DNA of 64,000 nt from Eledone cirrhosa. Taxonomy: Eukaryota. Below the pieces are notes generated by a model. The model was not told where the DNA came from and made no database searches. It saw nothing but the letters and a program-made list of their open reading frames with translations. The first letter of the stretch is position 1, and each line of letters opens with the position of its first letter. Below, in pieces: positions 1 to 64,000 of this stretch. Both the position numbers and the translations under genes were made by a program. The stretch covers positions 363,134,001 through 363,198,000 of the forward strand of contig OZ024741.1 in the NCBI GenBank assembly GCA_964016885.1. Direction: 5' to 3'.

Positions 1-511
1 CACTAGGATTTTCGAATAATTCTGAAAATAATAAAAATTTGGAGGGATTAGTAATATAAATAACTTTTAGTCGATGTTTGGAGCATAACTTCAGAAAAGT
101 TCTTACAAAAAATTATGGAAGGATTTGGGATAAATTTATAAAATAGTTTTGTGTCGAGAAACCAGAGGTAGTTTCTGGTGGTTTGGTATCCAAGAGGTTA
201 ATTAACACTTACTTATGTGAACTTATTTTTTACCAACATAAACTTTGGAAAGATTTGAAATCGTAATGAATGATTTGTAAAAAAAACCCTGAAAATGAAA
301 CTATCAGTCACCATACACCATACCTCTTGTGGGTTTTTACACATTAAAAGAAAATCAGAGTATAATATTTAAAAAAAACTGGCCTGAAAAGTTATTTACT
401 GTAAAAATACCTGGGATGTACAGTGACCAAAGTGATTCACAACAGAGTCTTTTGTTCTCAACTACAATAGTTCCATTTCCTGTTGAATTGTACAGTAGTA
501 CATGTCTTGTT

Positions 512-9135: not shown

Positions 9136-9685
9136 TGCCTTGAGCTATGTTAATACTGTTTGTGTCAGCCTGAATCAGTTAAATTAGAAATAAACAAAAG
9201 AGGTGAATGCTGATGTGATATGAAGTAGATAAATACTAATATCTTGGGTGGAACCCTTCATTGAAGTAGAGAGAAAATGTCAGAAATCAATATTTACAGT
9301 TATAAATATTAATTTGTTACATTGGAAGGGGGTCAGAAATTTGTGGAAGATGGGTACTTATGCTATTGACCCCAGAAAGATGAAAGGCAATATTGTCTCA
9401 AGTTTGAACATGGAATGTAGAGGAGCAAATCTAAATACTTGTAAGTAATTTAGTTCATTGTTTAAATTTTTTTGAGCTGTTCCTATCCCACCACCTTTTC
9501 AGACATTGTACATTAAGAACTACATTAGCTAATATGCTATTCTTTTTTTAAGGTGGTTGGATGAGTGAGATTTGGCTGTTATTTCTAAGAGATTGAGGGA
9601 TGGCATGGATGCAGCAAAGTATTATGCACATATGTAGCATACAATCTACCCTTCTCTTGGAGAAACAATTCTTTTATTGCCAACG

Positions 9686-9780
9686 GAGGTAATAGCTCAC
9701 TGACCTTCTTTCACCACGAGGTAATAGCTCACTGATCTTCTTTCACCACGAGGTAATAGCTCACTGACCTTCTTTCACCA
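9686..9780. repeat. 32-bp tandem repeat, 3 copies
   Basis: Unit GAGGTAATAGCTCACTGA(C/T)CTTCTTTCACCAC read directly. Confidence 0.95.
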
Positions 9781-10071
9781 TTTTCTTATTCTAGCTACTA
9801 CAGTTTCTGAACAACCTCCCCCACTGCTAATTAGGTCTTTTAGGTAACAGAAGCTATAAGCTACTTGTATGAAATCTTCCTTTAATTGGAGATAGTTTAT
9901 CACTAGTGCTCTAACTACTAACTGTCTCTGTGCATTTGCCACATACAAATCTATCTTTTCTGTTATCTTGCTTGCAAAATTTTACATTAAGTACATCATA
10001 TGGAATTCCTATAGTAAACAATATATATTATCATAAGCATCAGCATTATACAGCCACTTTATGAATATATA

Positions 10072-24353: not shown

Positions 24354-24366
24354 TATATATTATAAT

Positions 24367-24765
24367 GGAGGCACATGGCTTAGTGGTTACAGCATTGGCC
24401 TTGCAATTGAAAGGTTGTGAGTTCAATTCTCAGACTGGGTGATGTGTTGTTTCCTTGAGCAAGGCACTTTATTTCACATTGCTCCAGTTTACTCAGCTGT
24501 AGAAATGAGATGATAGGGACTGGGGTCCATATCATTCCACTGTAGAGTGGTCGTGGAGGTGCCACGGCAAAAAAAAAAAGCACCCAGCCCACACTGTACA
24601 GTGGACGTGTAGGTGCCACGGAAAAAAAAGCACCCAGCACTCACTGTAAATGAGGTTGGTGTTAGGAAGGGCATCCAGCTGTAGAAATCAAGCCAGAATC
24701 AGTTCCCGTCCCACCCTTGCAAGCAGGGAAAAGCGGACGTAAAATGAAAAGATGATGAATGATGA
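24367..24765 (+). mobile_element. tRNA-derived SINE with RTE-B 3' tail (second copy 37004-37335, minus strand)
   Basis: A box TGGCTTAGTGG (24376-24386) and B box GTTCAATTC (~24421). Central CCTTGAGCAAGGCACTT core. 3' end CCGTCCCACCCTTGCAAGCAGGGAAAAGCGGACGTAAAATG is identical to RTE-B. Confidence 0.9.
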
Positions 24766-24771
24766 TATATA

Positions 24772-49918: not shown

Positions 49919-52900
49919 CATCATCATCATCATCATTTTACGTCCGCTTTTCCCTGCTTGCAAGGGTGGGACGGGTCTTATTCAGCACAGCATCTCTCCA
50001 CTCGTCACGGTCCCTCGTCATCTCCACCGTGAGCTTCAATGATCTGAGGTCTGTTCTCACCACCTCTGCCCATGTTTTTCGTGGTCTACCTCTACCACGT
50101 CTTCCTTCAACTGGCATTTCCTGGCACTTCTTTACCCATCGGTCATCCTCCATGCGCATCACATGTCCATACCACCTCAGTCTCCTCTCCCGTACATTAC
50201 ATTCTATCCCTCTCAGACACAGTTTCTCTCTCAACACATTTATGCTGGGTCGTTCACGCACATTTACACTGCACATCCAACGGAGCATGCTTTCCTCATT
50301 TCTCTCCAGCCGTTGCATATCCTCTGCGGTTGCTGCCCATGTCTCACTACCATGCAGCATCGCGCTCCTCACACAGGCATCATACAACTGGCCTTTCGTA
50401 CGCAGGGAGAAACCCTTCTTCGTCAACAGAGGAAGCAGCTCCCTAAACTTCTTCCAACCCGTCCTTATTCTAGATACTATGGCCTCGGAACACCCTCCTC
50501 CCATGCTAATCTGATCTCCTAGGTACCGGAAGCTATCCACCACTTCTATAGCGCCGTCTCGCATTTGAAAAATGTGTCTATCAGTGCGACTTCTGTCTAA
50601 TTTCCCTGTACATCTACTGCATACATATTTCTCCCTACCTGTTAGTTTGCCTGCTATCCCGCTACATCTCTTGTGTACCCAGGACCTGCATTGTGTTCAT
50701 TTTATAGAATTTATGCCAGTTCCTTTTCTGCATATCGAACATGGCCATTTCCCTGACGGAATCAGGGTTTTGTCCTCTTTTCTACTCATCAACACTTTTG
50801 TCTTAGCTAGATTTACTCTCAGTCCTCTTGCTTCCAACTGCTGTTTCCATAGCCGGAATTTATTCTCTAGCTCCTCTACTGATTCTGCTATAAGAGCCAG
50901 ATCGTCAGCATAGAGAAGTTCCCATGGACAGCTAGTCTTAAACTCCTCTGTTATGGCTTGGAGGACTATAATGAACAAGAGCGGGCTGAGGACCGAACCC
51001 TGATGTACTCCTACTTGTATCTGGAATTCCTCACTAAACTCCATTCCTACCCTGACTTTACTGAGAGTACCTCTGTACAAAGTTTGCACTGTCCTCACAA
51101 GCCATTCCTCAACACCTAGCTTCCTTAGGGACCACCAGATGACAGATCGGGGTACCCTATCAAAGGCCTTCTCTAGGTCAACAAAGGCTAAGTATAGTGG
51201 CTTATTCTTCTCTAAGAACCTCTCTTGCATTTGTCTCACCAAGAAGAGGGCATCTGTTGTACTCTTCCCAGGCACAAAACCAAACTGCATCTCATCTAGT
51301 TTGACCCTTTCTCTAATTAGTTGTGCTAAAATCCTTTCTGCCACTTTCATAACCTGATCTATCAGTTTTATACCCCTATAATTGCTCCTCTCCAAAGCAT
51401 CCCCTTTACCTTTGTAGCAATTTATGAGAATACTGCTGCACCAGTCTTTGAGTATGACACCACCATATATAGCCTGATTGATGATGCGTGCAACCAGTTT
51501 AGTGCCTACGTCCCCTGATGCCTTCAGCATCTCAGCAACTATTCCCGATGGTCCGGCCGCCTTACCATTTTTCATTTCCCTAATCGCCTCTTGGACCCTA
51601 TATTCGTCAATCTCAATAGCTGGTCCCTCTGTCGGATCTACCAAGGGTAATTTCTCTCTCTCCCATTCGTTCTCCACATTCATCAGTCTCTCATAATGAC
51701 ATTTCCAGGCCTCCTTTTTCTGGTCATTCGTGACACTAAGTACACCGGCATCATCCCGGACACATTTATCTCCAACAACATCCTGATTTGCATTGACACA
51801 CTACCTTGCAATGTGGAACACCGCACGCCTCTGATCTTCCCGTCGCAGAACATTGGCAAACCTCCTACTCTCTGCCTCCCTGCGTGCTAAGTACACCTGA
51901 CGTCTAGCTTCTCTCTTAGTGGCTGTATATCCTTCCCTACTCCCACCCTTTTTCCAAGCCTTCCATGTTAGTCTTTTGTCTCTAATAGCCTTATCTACTG
52001 TACTGTTCCACCACCAGGTCACTCTCTGTCTGGTTGGAGCTCTGCTCCAGCCACAGGTTTCATCAGTAGTCTGCAGCAAGTTGTCACGTAAGAACTTCCA
52101 GTTATTATCTATGTCATACGTCTCTAAATCGTCTTCTTTTTCGTCATATACATCTTGAAGGGCTTTCCTAAATTTGTATTTTAGTGAAAGGTCTTTTAGC
52201 TTCCAGACCTTTCTTCTCCACACCTTCCTATATGTCTCATTCCATCTCTTGCTTACTGAGATATCACTAACAACTAACCTATGCTGTGGGGTACATTCTT
52301 CCCCAGGGTATGCCTTGGTATTAGACACTATCTGCCTGTCCCGCTGCCTAACTAGCAGGAAGTCAATCTGGCTTATGTGCTCACCAAATTTGTAGGTTAT
52401 TAGGTGATTGGCAGGTTTCTGGAAGTTTGTGTTGCAAATAGTCAATGTACTCGCATCACAAAATTCAAGAAGTCTCACTCCTTCTTCATTTCTTGAACCG
52501 TAACCGTGCCCACCATGTACCCCAGTGTAACCATCCTGGAGCTGTCCAACATGACCATTGAAGTCTCCTGCTAGCATAACGATGTCTCCGTCCTCTGTCA
52601 TTGTGGTTGTTTGCAAAAGTTGCTCATAAAAGCAGTCTTTCTCATCTTTGCCTAGGCCTGCTTGGGGAGCATAGACCGAGATGATTGTCAGTAGTCTCCT
52701 ACCTACAACTAATCTAAGCTTAATTATTCGATTACTAACTCAAACTACCTCTATTGTCTTATTGATCCATTTCTCAGCCAGGAAAATGCCTACTCCCCCT
52801 AACCCATCATCCTTACCTACCCAGAATAGCTTATAGCTAAGACGCTTGCCTACGACTAGTCTCGCAGAGGCACCTCTCCATCTCACCTCTTGCACGCAGC

Positions 52901-53272
52901 ACATATCCACCTGCCTTCTCTCCAGCATCTCCGCTATTTCAGCAGATCTACCTCTGAGAGTGCCAACATTAAGTGTTGCAACTCTGAGATGCGACGTCTT
53001 CATATTTTCCTATGCTGTTTTGTTGCTGTGCTGATAAGCTTTTTGGCATTGATACACTGGTTGGATGCCCTTCCTAACACCAGCGCCACTTTACAGCATG
53101 GACTGGGTGCTTTTATTTGTGCCACCAGCACTAGAGAGGATGTCTTACTAGACTCAAGGGCCCTCTCTACCCCTCCATTTTACAGCATGGTCATAAAAAA
53201 AAAAAAAAAAAAAAATTATTGACATGACGCACACACAAACACTCACACACCAATACTCATGCATACAAACCA
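49917..53272 (-). mobile_element. Full-length RTE family B, copy 1
   Basis: 5' UTR with a poly-T tract, ATG at 53003; the ORF ends immediately before the (ATG)n tail. Confidence 0.95.
49938..53003 (-). pseudogene. RTE-B EN-RT ORF with three in-frame stops (52740 TGA, 51801 TAG, 50697 TGA) and no frameshifts
   Basis: ORF-track pieces 52740-53003, 51801-52616, 50697-51683 and 49938-50564 are collinear and in one frame. Confidence 0.92.
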
Positions 53273-58666: not shown

Positions 58667-61600
58667 TCATCATCATCATCATCATTTTACGTCCGCTTTT
58701 CCCTGCTTGCAAGGGTGGGACGGGTCTTATTCAGCACAGCATCTCTCCACTCGTCACGGTCCCTCGTCATCTCCACCGTGAGCTTCAATGATCTGAGGTC
58801 TGTTCTCACCACCTCTGCCCATGTTTTTCGTGGTCTACCTCTACCACGTCTTCCTTCAACTGGCATTTCCTGGCACTTCTTTACCCATCGGTCATCCTCC
58901 ATGCGCATCACATGTCCATACCACCTCAGTCTCCTCTCCCGTACATTACATTCTATCCCTCTCAGACACAGTTTCTCTCTCAACACATTTATGCTGGGTC
59001 GTTCACGCACATTTACACTGCACATCCAACGGAGCATGCTTTCCTCATTTCTCTCCAGCCGTTGCATATCCTCTGCGGTTGCTGCCCATGTCTCACTACC
59101 ATGCAGCATCGCGCTCCTCACACAGGCATCATACAACTGGCCTTTCGTACGCAGGGAGAAACCCTTCTTCGTCAACAGAGGAAGCAGCTCCCTAAACTTC
59201 TTCCAACCCGTCCTTATTCTAGATACTATGGCCTCGGAACACCCTCCTCCCATGCTAATCTGATCTCCTAGGTACCGGAAGCTATCCACCACTTCTATAG
59301 CGCCGTCTCGCATTTGAAAAATGTGTCTATCAGTGCGACTTCTGTCTAATTTCCCTGTACATCTACTGCATACATATTTCTCCCTACCTGTTAGTTTGCC
59401 TGCTATCCCGCTACATCTCTTGTGTACCCAGGACCTGCATTGTGTTCATTTTATAGAATTTATGCCAGTTCCTTTTCTGCATATCGAACATGGCCATTTC
59501 CCTGACGGAATCAGGGTTTTGTCCTCTTTTCTACTCATCAACACTTTTGTCTTAGCTAGATTTACTCTCAGTCCTCTTGCTTCCAACTGCTGTTTCCATA
59601 GCCGGAATTTATTCTCTAGCTCCTCTACTGATTCTGCTATAAGAGCCAGATCGTCAGCATAGAGAAGTTCCCATGGACAGCTAGTCTTAAACTCCTCTGT
59701 TATGGCTTGGAGGACTATAATGAACAAGAGCGGGCTGAGGACCGAACCCTGATGTACTCCTACTTGTATCTGGAATTCCTCACTAAACTCCATTCCTACC
59801 CTGACTTTACTGAGAGTACCTCTGTACAAAGTTTGCACTGTCCTCACAAGCCATTCCTCAACACCTAGCTTCCTTAGGGACCACCAGATGACAGATCGGG
59901 GTACCCTATCAAAGGCCTTCTCTAGGTCAACAAAGGCTAAGTATAGTGGCTTATTCTTCTCTAAGAACCTCTCTTGCATTTGTCTCACCAAGAAGAGGGC
60001 ATCTGTTGTACTCTTCCCAGGCACAAAACCAAACTGCATCTCATCTAGTTTGACCCTTTCTCTAATTAGTTGTGCTAAAATCCTTTCTGCCACTTTCATA
60101 ACCTGATCTATCAGTTTTATACCCCTATAATTGCTCCTCTCCAAAGCATCCCCTTTACCTTTGTAGCAATTTATGAGAATACTGCTGCACCAGTCTTTGG
60201 GTATGACACCACCATATATAGCCTGATTGATGATGCGTGCAACCAGTTTAGTGCCTACGTCCCCTGATGCCTTCAGCATCTCAGCAACTATTCCCGATGG
60301 TCCGGCCGCCTTACCATTTTTCATTTCCCTAATCGCCTCTTGGACCCTATATTCGTCAATCTCAATAGCTGGTCCCTCTGTCGGATCTACCAAGGGTAAT
60401 TTCTCTCTCTCCCATTCGTTCTCCACATTCATCAGTCTCTCATAATGACATTTCCAGGCCTCCTTTTTCTGGTCATTCGTGACACTAAGTACACCGGCAT
60501 CATCCCGGACACATTTATCTCCAACAACATCCTGATTTGCATTGACACACTGCCTTGCAATGTGGAACACCGCACGCCTCTGATCTTCCCGTCACAGAAC
60601 ATTGGCAAACCTCCTACTCTCTGCCTCCCTGCGTGCTAAGTACACCTGACGTCTAGCTTCTCTCTTAGTGGCTGTATATCCTTCCCTACTCCCACCCTTT
60701 TTCCAAGCCTTCCATGTTAGTCTTTTGTCTCTAATAGCCTTATCTACTGTACTGTTCCACCACCAGGTCACTCTCTGTCTGGTTGGAGCTCTGCTCCAGC
60801 CACAGGTTTCATCAGTAGTCTGCAGCAAGTTGTCACGTAAGAACTTCCAGTTATTATCTATGTCATACGTCTCTAAATCGTCTTCTTTTTCGTCATATAC
60901 ATCTTGAAGGGCTTTCCTAAATTTGTATTTTAGTGAAAGGTCTTTTAGCTTCCAGACCTTTCTTCTCCACACCTTCCTATATGTCTCATTCCATCTCTTG
61001 CTTACTGAGATATCACTAACAACTAACCTATGCTGTGGGGTACATTCTTCCCCAGGGTATGCCTTGGTATTAGACACTATCTGCCTGTCCCGCTGCCTAA
61101 CTAGCAGGAAGTCAATCTGGCTTATGTGCTCACCAAATTTGTAGGTTATTAGGTGATTGGCAGGTTTCTGGAAGTTTGTGTTGCAAATAGTCAATGTACT
61201 CGCATCACAAAATTCAAGAAGTCTCACTCCTTCTTCATTTCTTGAACCGTAACCGTGCCCACCATGTACCCCAGTGTAACCATCCTGGAGCTGTCCAACA
61301 TGACCATTGAAGTCTCCTGCTAGCATAACGATGTCTCCGTCCTCTGTCATTGTGGTTGTTTGCAAAAGTTGCTCATAAAAGCAGTCTTTCTCATCTTTGC
61401 CTAGGCCTGCTTGGGGAGCATAGACCGAGATGATTGTCAGTAGTCTCCTACCTACAACTAATCTAAGCTTAATTATTCGATTACTAACTCAAACTACCTC
61501 TATTGTCTTATTGATCCATTTCTCAGCCAGGAAAATGCCTACTCCCCCTAACCCATCATCCTTACCTACCCAGAATAGCTTATAGCTAAGACGCTTGCCT

Positions 61601-62020
61601 ACGACTAGTCTCGCAGAGGCACCTCTCCATCTCACCTCTTGCACGCAGCACACATCCACCTGCCTTCTCTCCAGCATCTCCGCTATTTCAGCAGATCTAC
61701 CTCTGAGAGTGCCAACATTAAGTGTTGCAACTCTGAGATGCGACGTCTTCATATTTTCCTATGCTGTTTTGTTGCTGTGCTGATAAGCTTTTTGGCATTG
61801 ATACACTGGTTAGATGCCCTTCCTAACACCAGCGCCACTTTACAGCATGGACTGGGTGCTTTTATTTGTGCCACCAGCACTAGAGAGGATGTCTTACTAG
61901 ACTCAAGGGCCCTCTCTACCCCTCCATTTTACAGCATGGTCATAAAAAAAAAAAAAAAAAAATTATTGACATGACGCACACACAAACACTCACACACCAA
62001 TACTCATGCATACAAACCAT
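58667..62020 (-). mobile_element. Full-length RTE-B, copy 2 (ORF 58687-61752; in-frame TGA at 61489, 60592 and 59446)
   Basis: Near-identical to copy 1. Shares two stops and differs at the third. Confidence 0.95.
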
Positions 62021-62154
62021 ATATATGTATATATATATATATGTATGTATATAAATATATATGTATGTATATATATATATGTATGTATATATATATATAT
62101 GTATGTATATAAATATATATATATATATGTATGTATATATATATATATGTATGT

Positions 62155-62185
<31 letters not shown>

Positions 62186-62454
62186 TATGGTTTGTATGCA
62201 TGAGTATTGGTGTGTGAGTGTTTGTGTGTGCGTCATGTCAATAATTTTTTTTTTTTTTTTTTTATGACCATGCTGTAAAATGGAGGGGTAGAGAGGGCCC
62301 TTGAGTCTAGTAAGACATCCTCTCTAGTGCTGGTGGCACAAATAAAAGCACCCAGTCCATGCTGTAAAGTGGCGCTGGTGTTAGGAAGGGCATCTAACCA
62401 GTGTATCAATGCCAAAAAGCTTATCAGCACAGCAACAAAACAGCATAGGAAAAT

Positions 62455-64000
62455 ATGAAGACGTCGCATCTCAGAGTTGCAACACTTAATGTTGGCACTC
62501 TCAGAGGTAGATCTGCTGAAATAGCTAGAGTCCTTGTAGGAAAAAGCCAGTGCTACAAATTTTTCTGGGTGGGAAATGACGATGGGATGGGTGGTGTAGG
62601 TATACTATTAGCTGACAAGTGGGTAGATAAAGTAATCTCAGTGTACAGGGTAAATGCAAGAATCATTAAACTCAGACTAGTCCTGAATAAGACAATTACC
62701 ACAATAATATCAGCTTACGCACCCCAATCGGGGCTGCCAGACGAACTTAAGGATAGGTTTTACGAGTCCCTAATACACACTACTGCTCTAACAGACGACA
62801 AGGACTTCCTAATCATTGCAGGAGATTTTAACGGACACGTAGGTAAACACTGCGACGGCTTCAATAGAGTACATGGAGGCCATGGAGTTGGCACAAGGAA
62901 TGAGGAAGGATTCAGACTTCTAGAATTCTGCGACGCCAATGACATGTCGATATGTAACACAAACTTTAAAAAACCCGACAACCACCTGATCACCTATAGA
63001 TCAGGGGAGCACTCTAGTCAGTTAGATTTTATCCTCATCAGAGGACGTGACAGATGGACGGTCGTAAACACAAAAGCCTTCCCTAGTGAGGAATGTACAT
63101 CCCAACATAGCTTAGTTGTCAGCGACCTCACGGTCAGAACTAGACGAGCCCTGAAACAGAGGCCAACCTGGAGAAGAAAGATCTGGAAGCTGAAAGTCCC
63201 CTCAACCAGTAACAGATTTAAAGATATTTTACTCAACGCCTACGACAGTAAAGAAGAACAGATAGAGACATTTAACGTAGAAGAGAACTGGGAGTTCCTA
63301 AAAAATAACTTACTAGAGGGGACGGATGAGGTTTGTGGCTGGAGTAAGACCTCAAGCAGGAGGAGAGTGACTTGGTGGTGGAACAATAAGGTAGATGAAG
63401 CAGTCAAGGCCAAGAGACAGGCATGGAAAGAATGGAAGAACGGGGGGAGCAGGGTACATTACATAGAGACCAAGAGGGAAGCTAGGCGACAAGTATACTT
63501 AGCTAGGAGGGAAGCAGAGGATAGAAAATTCAAGCATGTTTTACAACGTGAGGACCAGAAACAGGAGGTATTCAAGATTGCGAGGCAGTGTGTCAGAGAT
63601 AGTTGTGATGTCATTGGAGAGAAGTGTATCCGGAATGATAAAGGTGAGCTTGCCCTCACAAGTGCTGAGAAGAAAGATGCATGGAAGAGTCATTATGATA
63701 GATTACTAAATGAGGAGAATGCATGGGAAGAAGAGACCCTACCCCACGTAGACCCTATAGAGGGACCAGCAGTACAAGTCAGCGGCAGCGTAGTAAGTAA
63801 GGCAATCAGAGATATGAAGATAGGGAAGGCAACCGGTCCATCGGGTATAGCTGCCGAGATGCTGAAGGCATCTGGGTCTGTAGGTCACACTATAACCACA
63901 CGTATCGTTAACCAGGTAATACTAGAGGGGGCCATACCAAAAGATTGGTGCAGTAGCATCATTGTCAACTGCTACAAAGGTAAAGGCGATGCACTAGATA
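62455..64000 (+). CDS. Chimeric RTE ORF: 24 codons of RTE-B fused in frame to a family-D EN/RT region, open to the window end
   Basis: MKTSHLRVATLNVGTLRGRSAEIA|RVLVGKSQCYKFFWVGNDDG...SAYAPQ...GDFNGH...QLDFIL...NCYKGKGDALD with no stop found. Confidence 0.88.
   Translation, partial: MKTSHLRVATLNVGTLRGRSAEIARVLVGKSQCYKFFWVGNDDGMGGVGILLADKWVDKVISVYRVNARIIKLRLVLNKTITTIISAYAPQSGLPDELKDRFYESLIHTTALTDDKDFLIIAGDFNGHVGKHCDGFNRVHGGHGVGTRNEEGFRLLEFCDANDMSICNTNFKKPDNHLITYRSGEHSSQLDFILIRGRDRWTVVNTKAFPSEECTSQHSLVVSDLTVRTRRALKQRPTWRRKIWKLKVPSTSNRFKDILLNAYDSKEEQIETFNVEENWEFLKNNLLEGTDEVCGWSKTSSRRRVTWWWNNKVDEAVKAKRQAWKEWKNGGSRVHYIETKREARRQVYLARREAEDRKFKHVLQREDQKQEVFKIARQCVRDSCDVIGEKCIRNDKGELALTSAEKKDAWKSHYDRLLNEENAWEEETLPHVDPIEGPAVQVSGSVVSKAIRDMKIGKATGPSGIAAEMLKASGSVGHTITTRIVNQVILEGAIPKDWCSSIIVNCYKGKGDALD

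What the first reader, a model, noticed from the sequence alone, without database searches (positions are those of the whole stretch)
62245..62455. Mobile tandem-pseudoknot RNA module: 5' UTR of RTE-B, 3' UTR of RTE-A and RTE-C, and body of a SINE
Seen: the same ~48-nt unit, in element-sense orientation, can fold as two stacked H-type pseudoknots with covarying pairs. PKa is a hairpin whose loop pairs downstream after an A-run: A tcgtg-taGGTGT-cacga..ACAC and ccgtg-tAGGcaa-cacgg..CCT; C tcgtg-gaGGTGC-cacgg..GCACC; B gtgc-tGGTG-gcac..CACC. PKb is cag(t/c)-CCAC-(a/g)ctg-taaa-GTGG, with variants CTCA/TGAG (C) and CCAT/ATGG (B). The units are followed by a hairpin around TGTTAGGAAGGGCAT whose closing stem also covaries (gttgg/ccagc in A and C; cgctggt/accagtg in B). 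B adds a further pseudoknot (aggggt/gccctt, loop agagagg pairing with cctctct) behind a T19 tract, and the module ends ~50 nt before the ATG. B has no 3' UTR at all. Inference: a shuffled cis-acting translation or stability module (IRES-like at the 5' end, poly(A)-substitute at the 3' end) for LINE RNAs that end in (AUG)n. It is architecturally reminiscent of the stacked pseudoknots in tobamovirus 3' UTRs. It could move between ends when elements insert head-to-tail.
Basis: partly seen in the sequence, partly recalled or inferred. Interest (0 to 1): 0.8.

Follow-up and report, generated by a model that had tools for sequence, protein, structure and literature searches.

The report
Stacked RNA pseudoknots in RTE retrotransposons
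Jumping genes of the RTE type in this animal genome carry a run of small predicted RNA knots in front of a motif shared by RTE elements across animals; the block sits at the front of one family and at the tail of others and of a non-coding passenger element, so it likely acts as a position-independent handle that the RNA needs in order to be copied back into the genome.

Summary
Largely confirmed, with corrections. The ~48-nt unit exists and can form two abutting H-type pseudoknots (shuffles 1, 0, 0 of 150). Loop/partner pairs covary between lineages, and two predictions held genome-wide (loop GGAG: partner T in 95 of 100 listed; loop CUCA: partner GAG in 100 of 100). Independent events are few, and PKb stem 1 never varies. 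The following motif (120,880 exact copies, control 0) is no local invention. It is an RTE 5'-UTR element found across animals, often right behind a twister ribozyme, and kept in bipartite SINEs (hagfish, Kojima 2020). The copy at the given coordinates is a one-off chimera: 337 nt of B's 5' end joined to C's body, with the module at both ends. The 5' position is probably ancestral, with one move to the 3' UTR by tail capture rather than repeated shuffling. Retention in untranslated SINEs argues for a retrotransposition/RNP docking role (0.42) over an IRES/poly(A) substitute or ribosome docking (0.3). No function was tested. New variant of a known kind.

The parts
62165..62525 (+). Perfect inverted copy (361 bp) of the adjacent B(-) 5' end and 24 nt of TA flank; 5' part of a one-off B/C chimeric insertion
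   Evidence: arms 61682-62042 / 62165-62525, spacer 122 nt
62245..62263 (+). T19 tract in B's 5' UTR
62268..62283 (+). Distal PKb remnant of B (CCAT/ATGG helix only; CAG/CTG stem missing)
   Evidence: sequence
62284..62325 (+). B-specific predicted pseudoknot in the PKa position (GGGG(T)/(G)CCCT; AGAGAGG/CCTCTCT)
   Evidence: no double change seen within B subfamilies; stem 1 only 4 bp in one subfamily
62327..62352 (+). PKa (GTGC/GCAC; GGTG/CACC; A-rich loop 3)
62353..62372 (+). PKb (CAG/CTG; CCAT/GTGG; TAAA loop 3)
62373..62413 (+). Pan-animal RTE 5'-UTR core, predicted third pseudoknot PKc (GTT-A-GGA / TCY-AAC; loop GGCA pairs TGCC at 62410-62413), with a B-specific extension CGCTG/CAGTG
62455..64000 (+). 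Chimeric ORF: B start codon and first 24 codons joined in frame to a C ORF that lacks part of the endonuclease N-terminus; frameshifted near residue 540, beyond the window; C 3' UTR with a second module follows beyond the window (L031)
58668..62042 (-). RTE family B copy, 5'-truncated, module in 5' UTR, ORF runs into the tail; source of the inverted copy
49922..53268 (-). Second B copy (local duplication)
27063..30773 (-). RTE family A, near full length (EN, RT, PHD-like finger); 5' UTR lacks the module
27174..27311 (-). Module in A's 3' UTR: two PKa-PKb units plus core, 125 nt before the (ATG)n tail
32495..32629 (-). Module in C's 3' UTR: two units plus core, 136 nt before the tail
24365..24770 (+). 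SINE: tRNA-like head (A/B-box-like motifs by eye; ARAGORN finds no tRNA), C-type module at 24551-24694, B-type tail
37012..37337 (-). SINE variant with a single unit

Best explanation
This is the 5'-UTR motif shared by RTE retrotransposons across animals, here preceded by a lineage-specific tandem unit, predicted to fold as a continuous stack of small H-type pseudoknots, and it likely serves as a position-independent docking site that lets the RTE protein complex select and copy the RNA together with the tail hairpin. Shown: the sequence, its positions, its spread and the covariation between lineages. Predicted: the folds PKa, PKb and PKc. Inferred history: in other animals the core lies in the 5' UTR, often behind a twister ribozyme; bipartite non-autonomous elements and SINEs keep it next to the tail; an A/C ancestor probably captured such a (module + tail) end as a new 3' UTR and lost the 5' copy, while B kept the 5' position. 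Inferred and untested: the binding partner.
For: Core in the 5' UTR of RTEs outside this genome: L185, L186 and L213 have the endonuclease 211-232 nt downstream. Twister-P1 hits lie directly upstream in L213, L214 and L156 (E 2e-6, 2e-3, 3e-9, all below gathering). [quoted passage not shown] Here 190 of 216 core contexts have the tail hairpin within 260 nt and 53 are in the SINE. Structure: 88% of cells paired and 4 of 18 pairs double-changed over 13 lineages, slid controls 26-52%. Family with loop GGAG (6,207 copies): partner T in 95 of 100 listed. Loop CTCA (46,798 copies): partner GAG in 100 of 100 listed. Core register 98.8% paired. The GCY partner lies at +10..14 in 13 of 26 outside families versus 0-6 of 26 in other windows, and in 7 of 7 hagfish sequences. 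The same topology (TAGC/GCTA) follows the twister in another RTE family of this genome.
Against: No binding, probing or reporter data, and no RNA run listed. Independent compensatory events are about five, and related rows inflate the shuffle test. PKb stem 1 is invariant, so only its loop-partner helix covaries. The young A family's second PKa is broken or re-registered (GGCAA vs CCTCC), and C's second has a C.A mismatch. Nested folding is no better than shuffles for A, B and C (z -0.2 to -0.5; SINE -2.1). Y/R covariation outside this genome is not significant (p about 0.1), and the scan pattern fixed most core positions. Near-invariant sequence across phyla fits a conserved host partner at least as well as the RTE protein (45-53% identical). 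A+C clade support is only 58/83.
Confidence: 0.42

Rival explanations
1. The stack binds a conserved host translation component (eEF1A, an initiation factor or the ribosome), like the TMV upstream pseudoknot domain. It would drive translation of uncapped or unpolyadenylated LINE RNA from either end, and park SINE RNA on ribosomes to capture new RTE protein.
For: The architecture resembles the TMV UPD, which binds eEF1A and can replace poly(A) (PMC4683447 passages). The core follows a twister whose cleavage removes the cap yet permits translation (PMC8501958). B's 1.1-kb 5' UTR has 24-26 upstream ATGs in 900 nt and an A/C-rich stretch before the ATG. Sequence invariance across phyla suits a conserved host partner. 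Ribosome parking of Alu-type SINEs is a precedent (PMC7245038 passages; details recalled).
Against: C's 5' UTR has 14-19 ATGs in 700 nt without the module. No twister was found in the held 5' regions of B or C. No sequence homology to viral elements was tested, and no Rfam hit reaches gathering in the window. No functional data.
Confidence: 0.3
2. The stack is a nuclease barrier that protects uncapped or (AUG)n-ended RNA from exonucleases and may leave stable 3' fragments (xrRNA-like; family features recalled).
For: Tandem pseudoknots with no spacers. An HDV-like double pseudoknot gives cap-like protection to R2 templates (PMC13708176 passage).
Against: 5' truncation points of 21 A and 23 C copies do not pile up at unit edges (small sample). 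A single unit suffices in many SINE copies.
Confidence: 0.13
3. Only the core is functional. The tandem unit is a slippage-prone repeat carried along, and its apparent covariation comes from a few chance double changes in master copies.
For: The unit expands into 12-19-copy minisatellites, as do unrelated element parts. Unit number varies from 1 to many. Second units decay in active families. There are few independent events, and the unit was not seen outside close relatives.
Against: Three separate WC-to-WC changes in crossing helices, two confirmed on genome-wide lists. Loop lengths fit pseudoknot geometry (rules recalled), with zero-nucleotide joints. B keeps the topology with different sequence (62284-62325).
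Confidence: 0.15

Closest known systems
RTE 5'-UTR fragments kept in bipartite non-autonomous RTEs and SINEs (Kojima 2018 PMC5786205; hagfish RTE-2_EBu, RTE-4_EBu, SINE1-1_EBu and SINE2-1/1B/9/10_EBu, Kojima 2020 PMC7245038)
   Same: The identical core motif and its downstream TGCC occur in the hagfish LINE 5' UTRs and SINEs; the SINE here has the same layout: head + 5' piece + tail.
   Different: The passages read give no structure for the piece. Here it is preceded by tandem PKa-PKb units and sits in the 3' UTR of autonomous LINEs. The Ceph-domain RTE piece of Kojima 2018 is a different sequence (motif absent from that supplement).
Twister-P1 ribozymes at RTE 5' ends (Perere-3 T-variants, PMC8501958; truncated twisters, PMC7761336; Rfam RF03160)
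   Same: Same position: directly 5' of the core in other animals. This genome has another RTE family with a 5' twister (9 matches).
   Different: The module here gives no twister hit. Similarity of PKb to the twister 3' half is not significant (p 0.07, 0.36, 0.47).
Tobamovirus upstream pseudoknot domain (TMV PK1-3; PMC4683447)
   Same: Consecutive small H-type pseudoknots upstream of a terminal replication signal in an RNA without poly(A).
   Different: Retrotransposon, not virus; also found in a 5' UTR and a SINE; no tRNA-like end; homology, eEF1A binding and poly(A) replacement untested.
3' stem-loop recognition signals of stringent LINE/SINE pairs (PMC3747384)
   Same: Structured RNA shared by LINE and SINE near the tail; a separate terminal hairpin is shared by A, B, C and the SINE.
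   Different: The module is upstream of and distinct from that terminal hairpin, and in B it lies about 3 kb from it.

Membership tests
RTE-type non-LTR retrotransposon (host elements) | Single ORF with AP-endonuclease and reverse transcriptase | tested here: met
   Pfam Exo_endo_phos and RVT_1 in A (1027 aa) and in B pieces; clade assignment to RTE rests on layout and on likeness to the hagfish RTEs, not on an RT classification
RTE-type non-LTR retrotransposon (host elements) | Short-repeat 3' tail | tested here: met
   (ATG)n tails on A, B, C and the SINE
Conserved RTE 5'-UTR piece of bipartite RTE/SINEs | Same sequence in the 5' UTR of autonomous RTEs | tested here: met
   L185, L186, L213; RTE-2_EBu, RTE-4_EBu; family B
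Conserved RTE 5'-UTR piece of bipartite RTE/SINEs | Kept next to the RTE tail in non-autonomous elements | tested here: met
   SINE here; L196, L209, L214; five hagfish SINEs
Ceph-domain RTE 5' piece | Sequence similarity to the Ceph-domain 3' half | tested here: not met
   Motif absent from the Kojima 2018 supplement; sequences shown there differ by eye
Twister-P1 ribozyme | Match to RF03160 with P1/P2/P4, T1/T2 and the catalytic loop | tested here: not met
   No hit at gathering in the window or at E<=10 in 62150-62520
Twister-P1 ribozyme | Descent of PKb from the twister P4/L4 half | tested here: inconclusive
   A p=0.07, B 0.36, C 0.47 against shuffles
H-type pseudoknot stack | Two crossing helices per knot with compatible loop lengths | tested here: met
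   Geometry search and shuffles; geometry rules recalled
H-type pseudoknot stack | Covariation in both crossing helices | tested here: inconclusive
   PKa: both helices covary. PKb: only the loop-partner helix; stem 1 invariant. PKc: one pair in stem 1; loop fixed by the scan pattern
H-type pseudoknot stack | Fold shown by probing or structure | not testable with these tools
   needs SHAPE/DMS or structure
Tobamovirus UPD-like translation enhancer / IRES | Enhances cap- or poly(A)-independent translation; binds eEF1A | not testable with these tools
   no assay possible
xrRNA-type nuclease barrier | Stable ends at the 5' edge of the structure | tested here: inconclusive
   No pile-up of 5' truncations among 21 A and 23 C copies; indirect and small

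The most novel reading that the evidence does not exclude
RTE retrotransposons across animals share an undescribed pseudoknot behind their 5' twister that docks the RNA on a conserved host translation component. In this lineage it grew into a tobamovirus-like stack of pseudoknots and moved to the 3' UTR, where it works as a poly(A) substitute or 3' translation enhancer. SINEs keep it to capture RTE protein at the ribosome. That would explain why RTEs, almost alone among LINEs, spawn bipartite SINEs.
Probability: 0.25. Interest if true: 0.85.

Novelty: new variant of a known kind. Interest (0 to 1): 0.6.

Why it matters
Kojima 2018 leaves open why only a few LINE clades (RTE, Ingi, Vingi, R2) give bipartite non-autonomous elements and why their 5'-UTR pieces are conserved. 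A concrete predicted fold, with natural compensatory variants and natural 5' and 3' placements, makes that question directly testable by mutation and rescue. It also bears on RTE-based gene-insertion tools, whose templates carry both UTRs (PMC13708176 passage). No description of these folds or of the 3'-UTR placement turned up in searches. Repbase entries and most subscription papers were not searchable.

Tried and rejected
Rfam on the window: no match at gathering; only microsatellite noise at E<=10. Twister origin of PKb looked good by eye but was not significant, so it is kept only as a lead. No twister in the held 5' regions of B (L005) or C (L226). A loose test for a partner of the core loop did not discriminate (19 of 29 vs 28 of 58 control windows); only the sharper, post hoc position test did. 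Nested folding z-scores are uninformative for pseudoknots. The viral-contig scan gave 2 chance-looking hits. Several GTDB hits are chance bacterial matches, and others look like animal DNA in bins; 25 loci (26 hits) were hand-picked from 154 hits as distinct families. The first unit regex required CAG/CTG and GTG/CAC and so could not test those pairs; it was redone anchored on the core (177 of 212 parsed). A lineage with a broken proximal PKb is rare (0 of 100 listed with the stem-1 break). No pile-up of truncations. No RNA holder listed. No contig piece listed bridged the B/C junction, which proves nothing either way. A B 5'-piece/tail fusion is single-copy. The search for short B 5' UTR variants was too narrow to inform. 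The endonuclease trees leave A, B and C unresolved. Earlier scan findings: none. A genome count for the GTTGGTG-loop array variant was not obtained.

Full report
Setting. The window is a cluster of LINE copies inserted in (TA)n tracts of a 3.0-Gb animal genome. The landscape recalls octopus genomes; that is recalled, not tested. Three families with an endonuclease-RT ORF and (ATG)n tails are present (A, B, C), plus a SINE. The motif GGAAGGGCAT occurs 20 times exactly, against a chance mean of 1.9 with one mismatch. An 18-nt form has 120,880 exact genomic matches, reversed control 0. A B-specific pattern has 953 matches, so most copies are not B.

Observation check. The unit also lies after the stop codons of A and C, 125-136 nt before the tail, and in the SINE, 79-86 nt before it. 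The native 5' UTRs of A and C lack it. B's ORF runs into the tail. The copy at the given coordinates is special, however. 62165-62525 is a perfect 361-bp inverted copy of the neighbouring B(-) end, including its truncation point and 24 nt of TA flank. It joins a C body by a 2-nt GC overlap and ends beyond the window with C's 3' UTR and a second module. Of 30 loci retrieved with the B piece, 29 continue into B's ORF. The chimeric ORF lacks part of the endonuclease N-terminus and is frameshifted near residue 540. Local copying during a C insertion is the likely cause; an assembly artefact is not excluded.

Is the fold real? Two abutting H-type pseudoknots in 48 nt were matched by 1, 0 and 0 of 150 shuffles. 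Loop lengths fit the usual geometry (recalled), and the helices abut with no spacer. Over 13 hand-chosen lineages, 88% of cells pair and 4 of 18 pairs change on both sides, versus 26-52% for slid partners; relatedness inflates the shuffle test, and one row is a single-locus array. Two predictions were then tested genome-wide. A family with PKa loop GGAG (6,207 copies) has the partner T in 95 of the 100 rows listed, with A in 3 and C in 2 (counted by eye; some rows are tandem neighbours). The PKb loop CTCA (46,798 copies) is followed by GAG in 100 of 100. In 60 fresh 10-kb stretches the PKb loop base paired with its partner in 169 of 178 units and the PKa base in 31 of 44. Against: independent events number about five; PKb stem 1 never varies; the young A family's second PKa is broken or shifted and C's has a C.A mismatch; B's extra knot shows no double change and its stem 1 shrinks to 4 bp in one subfamily; nested folding is not better than shuffles except for the SINE; the unit can expand as a minisatellite.

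The core. Scans of metagenome and genome contigs gave 120 and 32 stretches, mostly animal-looking repeats. None of those displayed showed the tandem unit, which was otherwise seen only in DNA runs of two other, closely matching organisms. In L185, L186 and L213 an RTE-like endonuclease starts 211-232 nt downstream. In L213, L214 and L156 a twister-P1 match lies directly upstream (below gathering; the look-alike L148 was not hit). The supplement of PMC7245038 shows the same core in the 5' UTRs of hagfish RTE-2_EBu (after a twister-like start, by eye) and RTE-4_EBu, and in five SINEs next to the RTE tail. On 27 homologues RNAalifold chose GUY-A-GGA[AGGGCA]UCC-RGC: 98.8% paired with one covarying pair. 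The loop's GGC has a GCY partner 10-14 nt downstream in 13 of 26 outside families, versus 0-6 elsewhere (post hoc), and in 7 of 7 hagfish sequences (two source LINEs). A twister-bearing RTE family of this genome has the same topology with TAGC/GCTA. So the core is probably a third pseudoknot. Descent of PKb from a twister half is not supported statistically.

History. Endonuclease identity is A-C 70%, A-B 59%, B-C 62%, and 45-53% to L185/L186. The outgroups and B have the 5' position, so one move to the 3' UTR in an A/C ancestor is the simplest reading, but A+C has only 58/83 support. The 3' ends of A and C have the layout of bipartite elements (5' piece, then tail), and the SINE joins a C-type module to B's tail. 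Of 216 core contexts, 190 have the tail hairpin within 260 nt and 53 are SINE (only L003 of the 30 B-search loci was included, plus L031, so B is under-counted). A single B 5'-piece/tail fusion shows that such junctions arise.

Mechanism. Non-coding SINEs with their own heads keep the block, in this genome and in hagfish. The best reading is therefore a handle needed for retrotransposition that works near either end (0.42; partner inferred). Docking on a conserved translation component, as the TMV UPD does with eEF1A (PMC4683447), would explain the same facts plus the cross-phylum invariance (0.30). B's 24-26 upstream ATGs favour it, but C copes with 14-19 without the module. A nuclease barrier (0.13) found no support in truncation points. 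A hitch-hiking repeat (0.15) is not excluded for the tandem unit.

What was read. PMC5786205: parts 1-4 of 5 and supplement term searches. PMC7245038: passages and supplement hits. PMC8501958: abstract, first part of section 18, section 22 and a supplement search. Passages only: PMC7761336, PMC9115989, PMC13708176, PMC4683447, PMC10976276, PMC3747384, PMC4758252. Figures were not visible. No description of these folds or of the 3'-UTR placement was found in searches.

Verdict. A real, covarying RNA block: a known RTE 5'-UTR piece with a newly proposed pseudoknot fold, a lineage-specific tandem extension and an unusual 3'-UTR position. Function untested. New variant of a known kind; interest 0.6.

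Noticed in passing
window 61682-62525: Perfect 361-bp inverted duplication of local DNA at the 5' junction of a truncated C insertion, sharing a private T at 62395 with its neighbour: looks like template switching onto flanking DNA during insertion, or an assembly artefact.
   Followed up: partly
L216-L224 (e.g. L216:1501-1612): A distant RTE-like family with a 5' twister-P1 ribozyme (9 matches, below gathering) followed by a hairpin whose loop can pair downstream after a GTAAAA linker.
   Followed up: partly
whole window: A, B, C and the SINE sit almost always in (TA)n tracts, often nested or head-to-head: apparent microsatellite targeting.
   Followed up: no
L035, L047, L051, L061: An A subfamily has an internal duplication of PKb + unit 2 + core (two cores in tandem), apparently formed at a CAGTCC microhomology.
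   Followed up: partly
L377 / L278:60-260: Single-copy internally deleted B: core, ORF start and tail joined.
   Followed up: yes
L294:9388-10000; L295:5495-6379, 9195-9991: The unit expanded into 12-19-copy minisatellites, beside arrays of unrelated element parts.
   Followed up: partly
window 30540-30580 (minus): A's long ORF starts right after a TAA with an in-frame ATG 12 codons upstream; a copy-specific stop or read-through was not checked.
   Followed up: no
L005:590-1709: Full-length B has a ~1.1-kb 5' UTR rich in (CAA)n, (CCA)n and (TG)n repeats, ending in a T tract of variable length.
   Followed up: partly
A, C, G-type and SINE copies, about 20-30 nt after the core stem: A TCCT/TTCC/TTCT stretch could pair with the GGA(A) of the core in an alternative fold; not tested.
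   Followed up: no
L185-L215: Several prokaryote genome bins hold contigs with animal-like RTE and SINE sequence, probably contamination.
   Followed up: no
window 27457-30540, residues 767-810: PHD-finger-like match after the RT domain of A.
   Followed up: no
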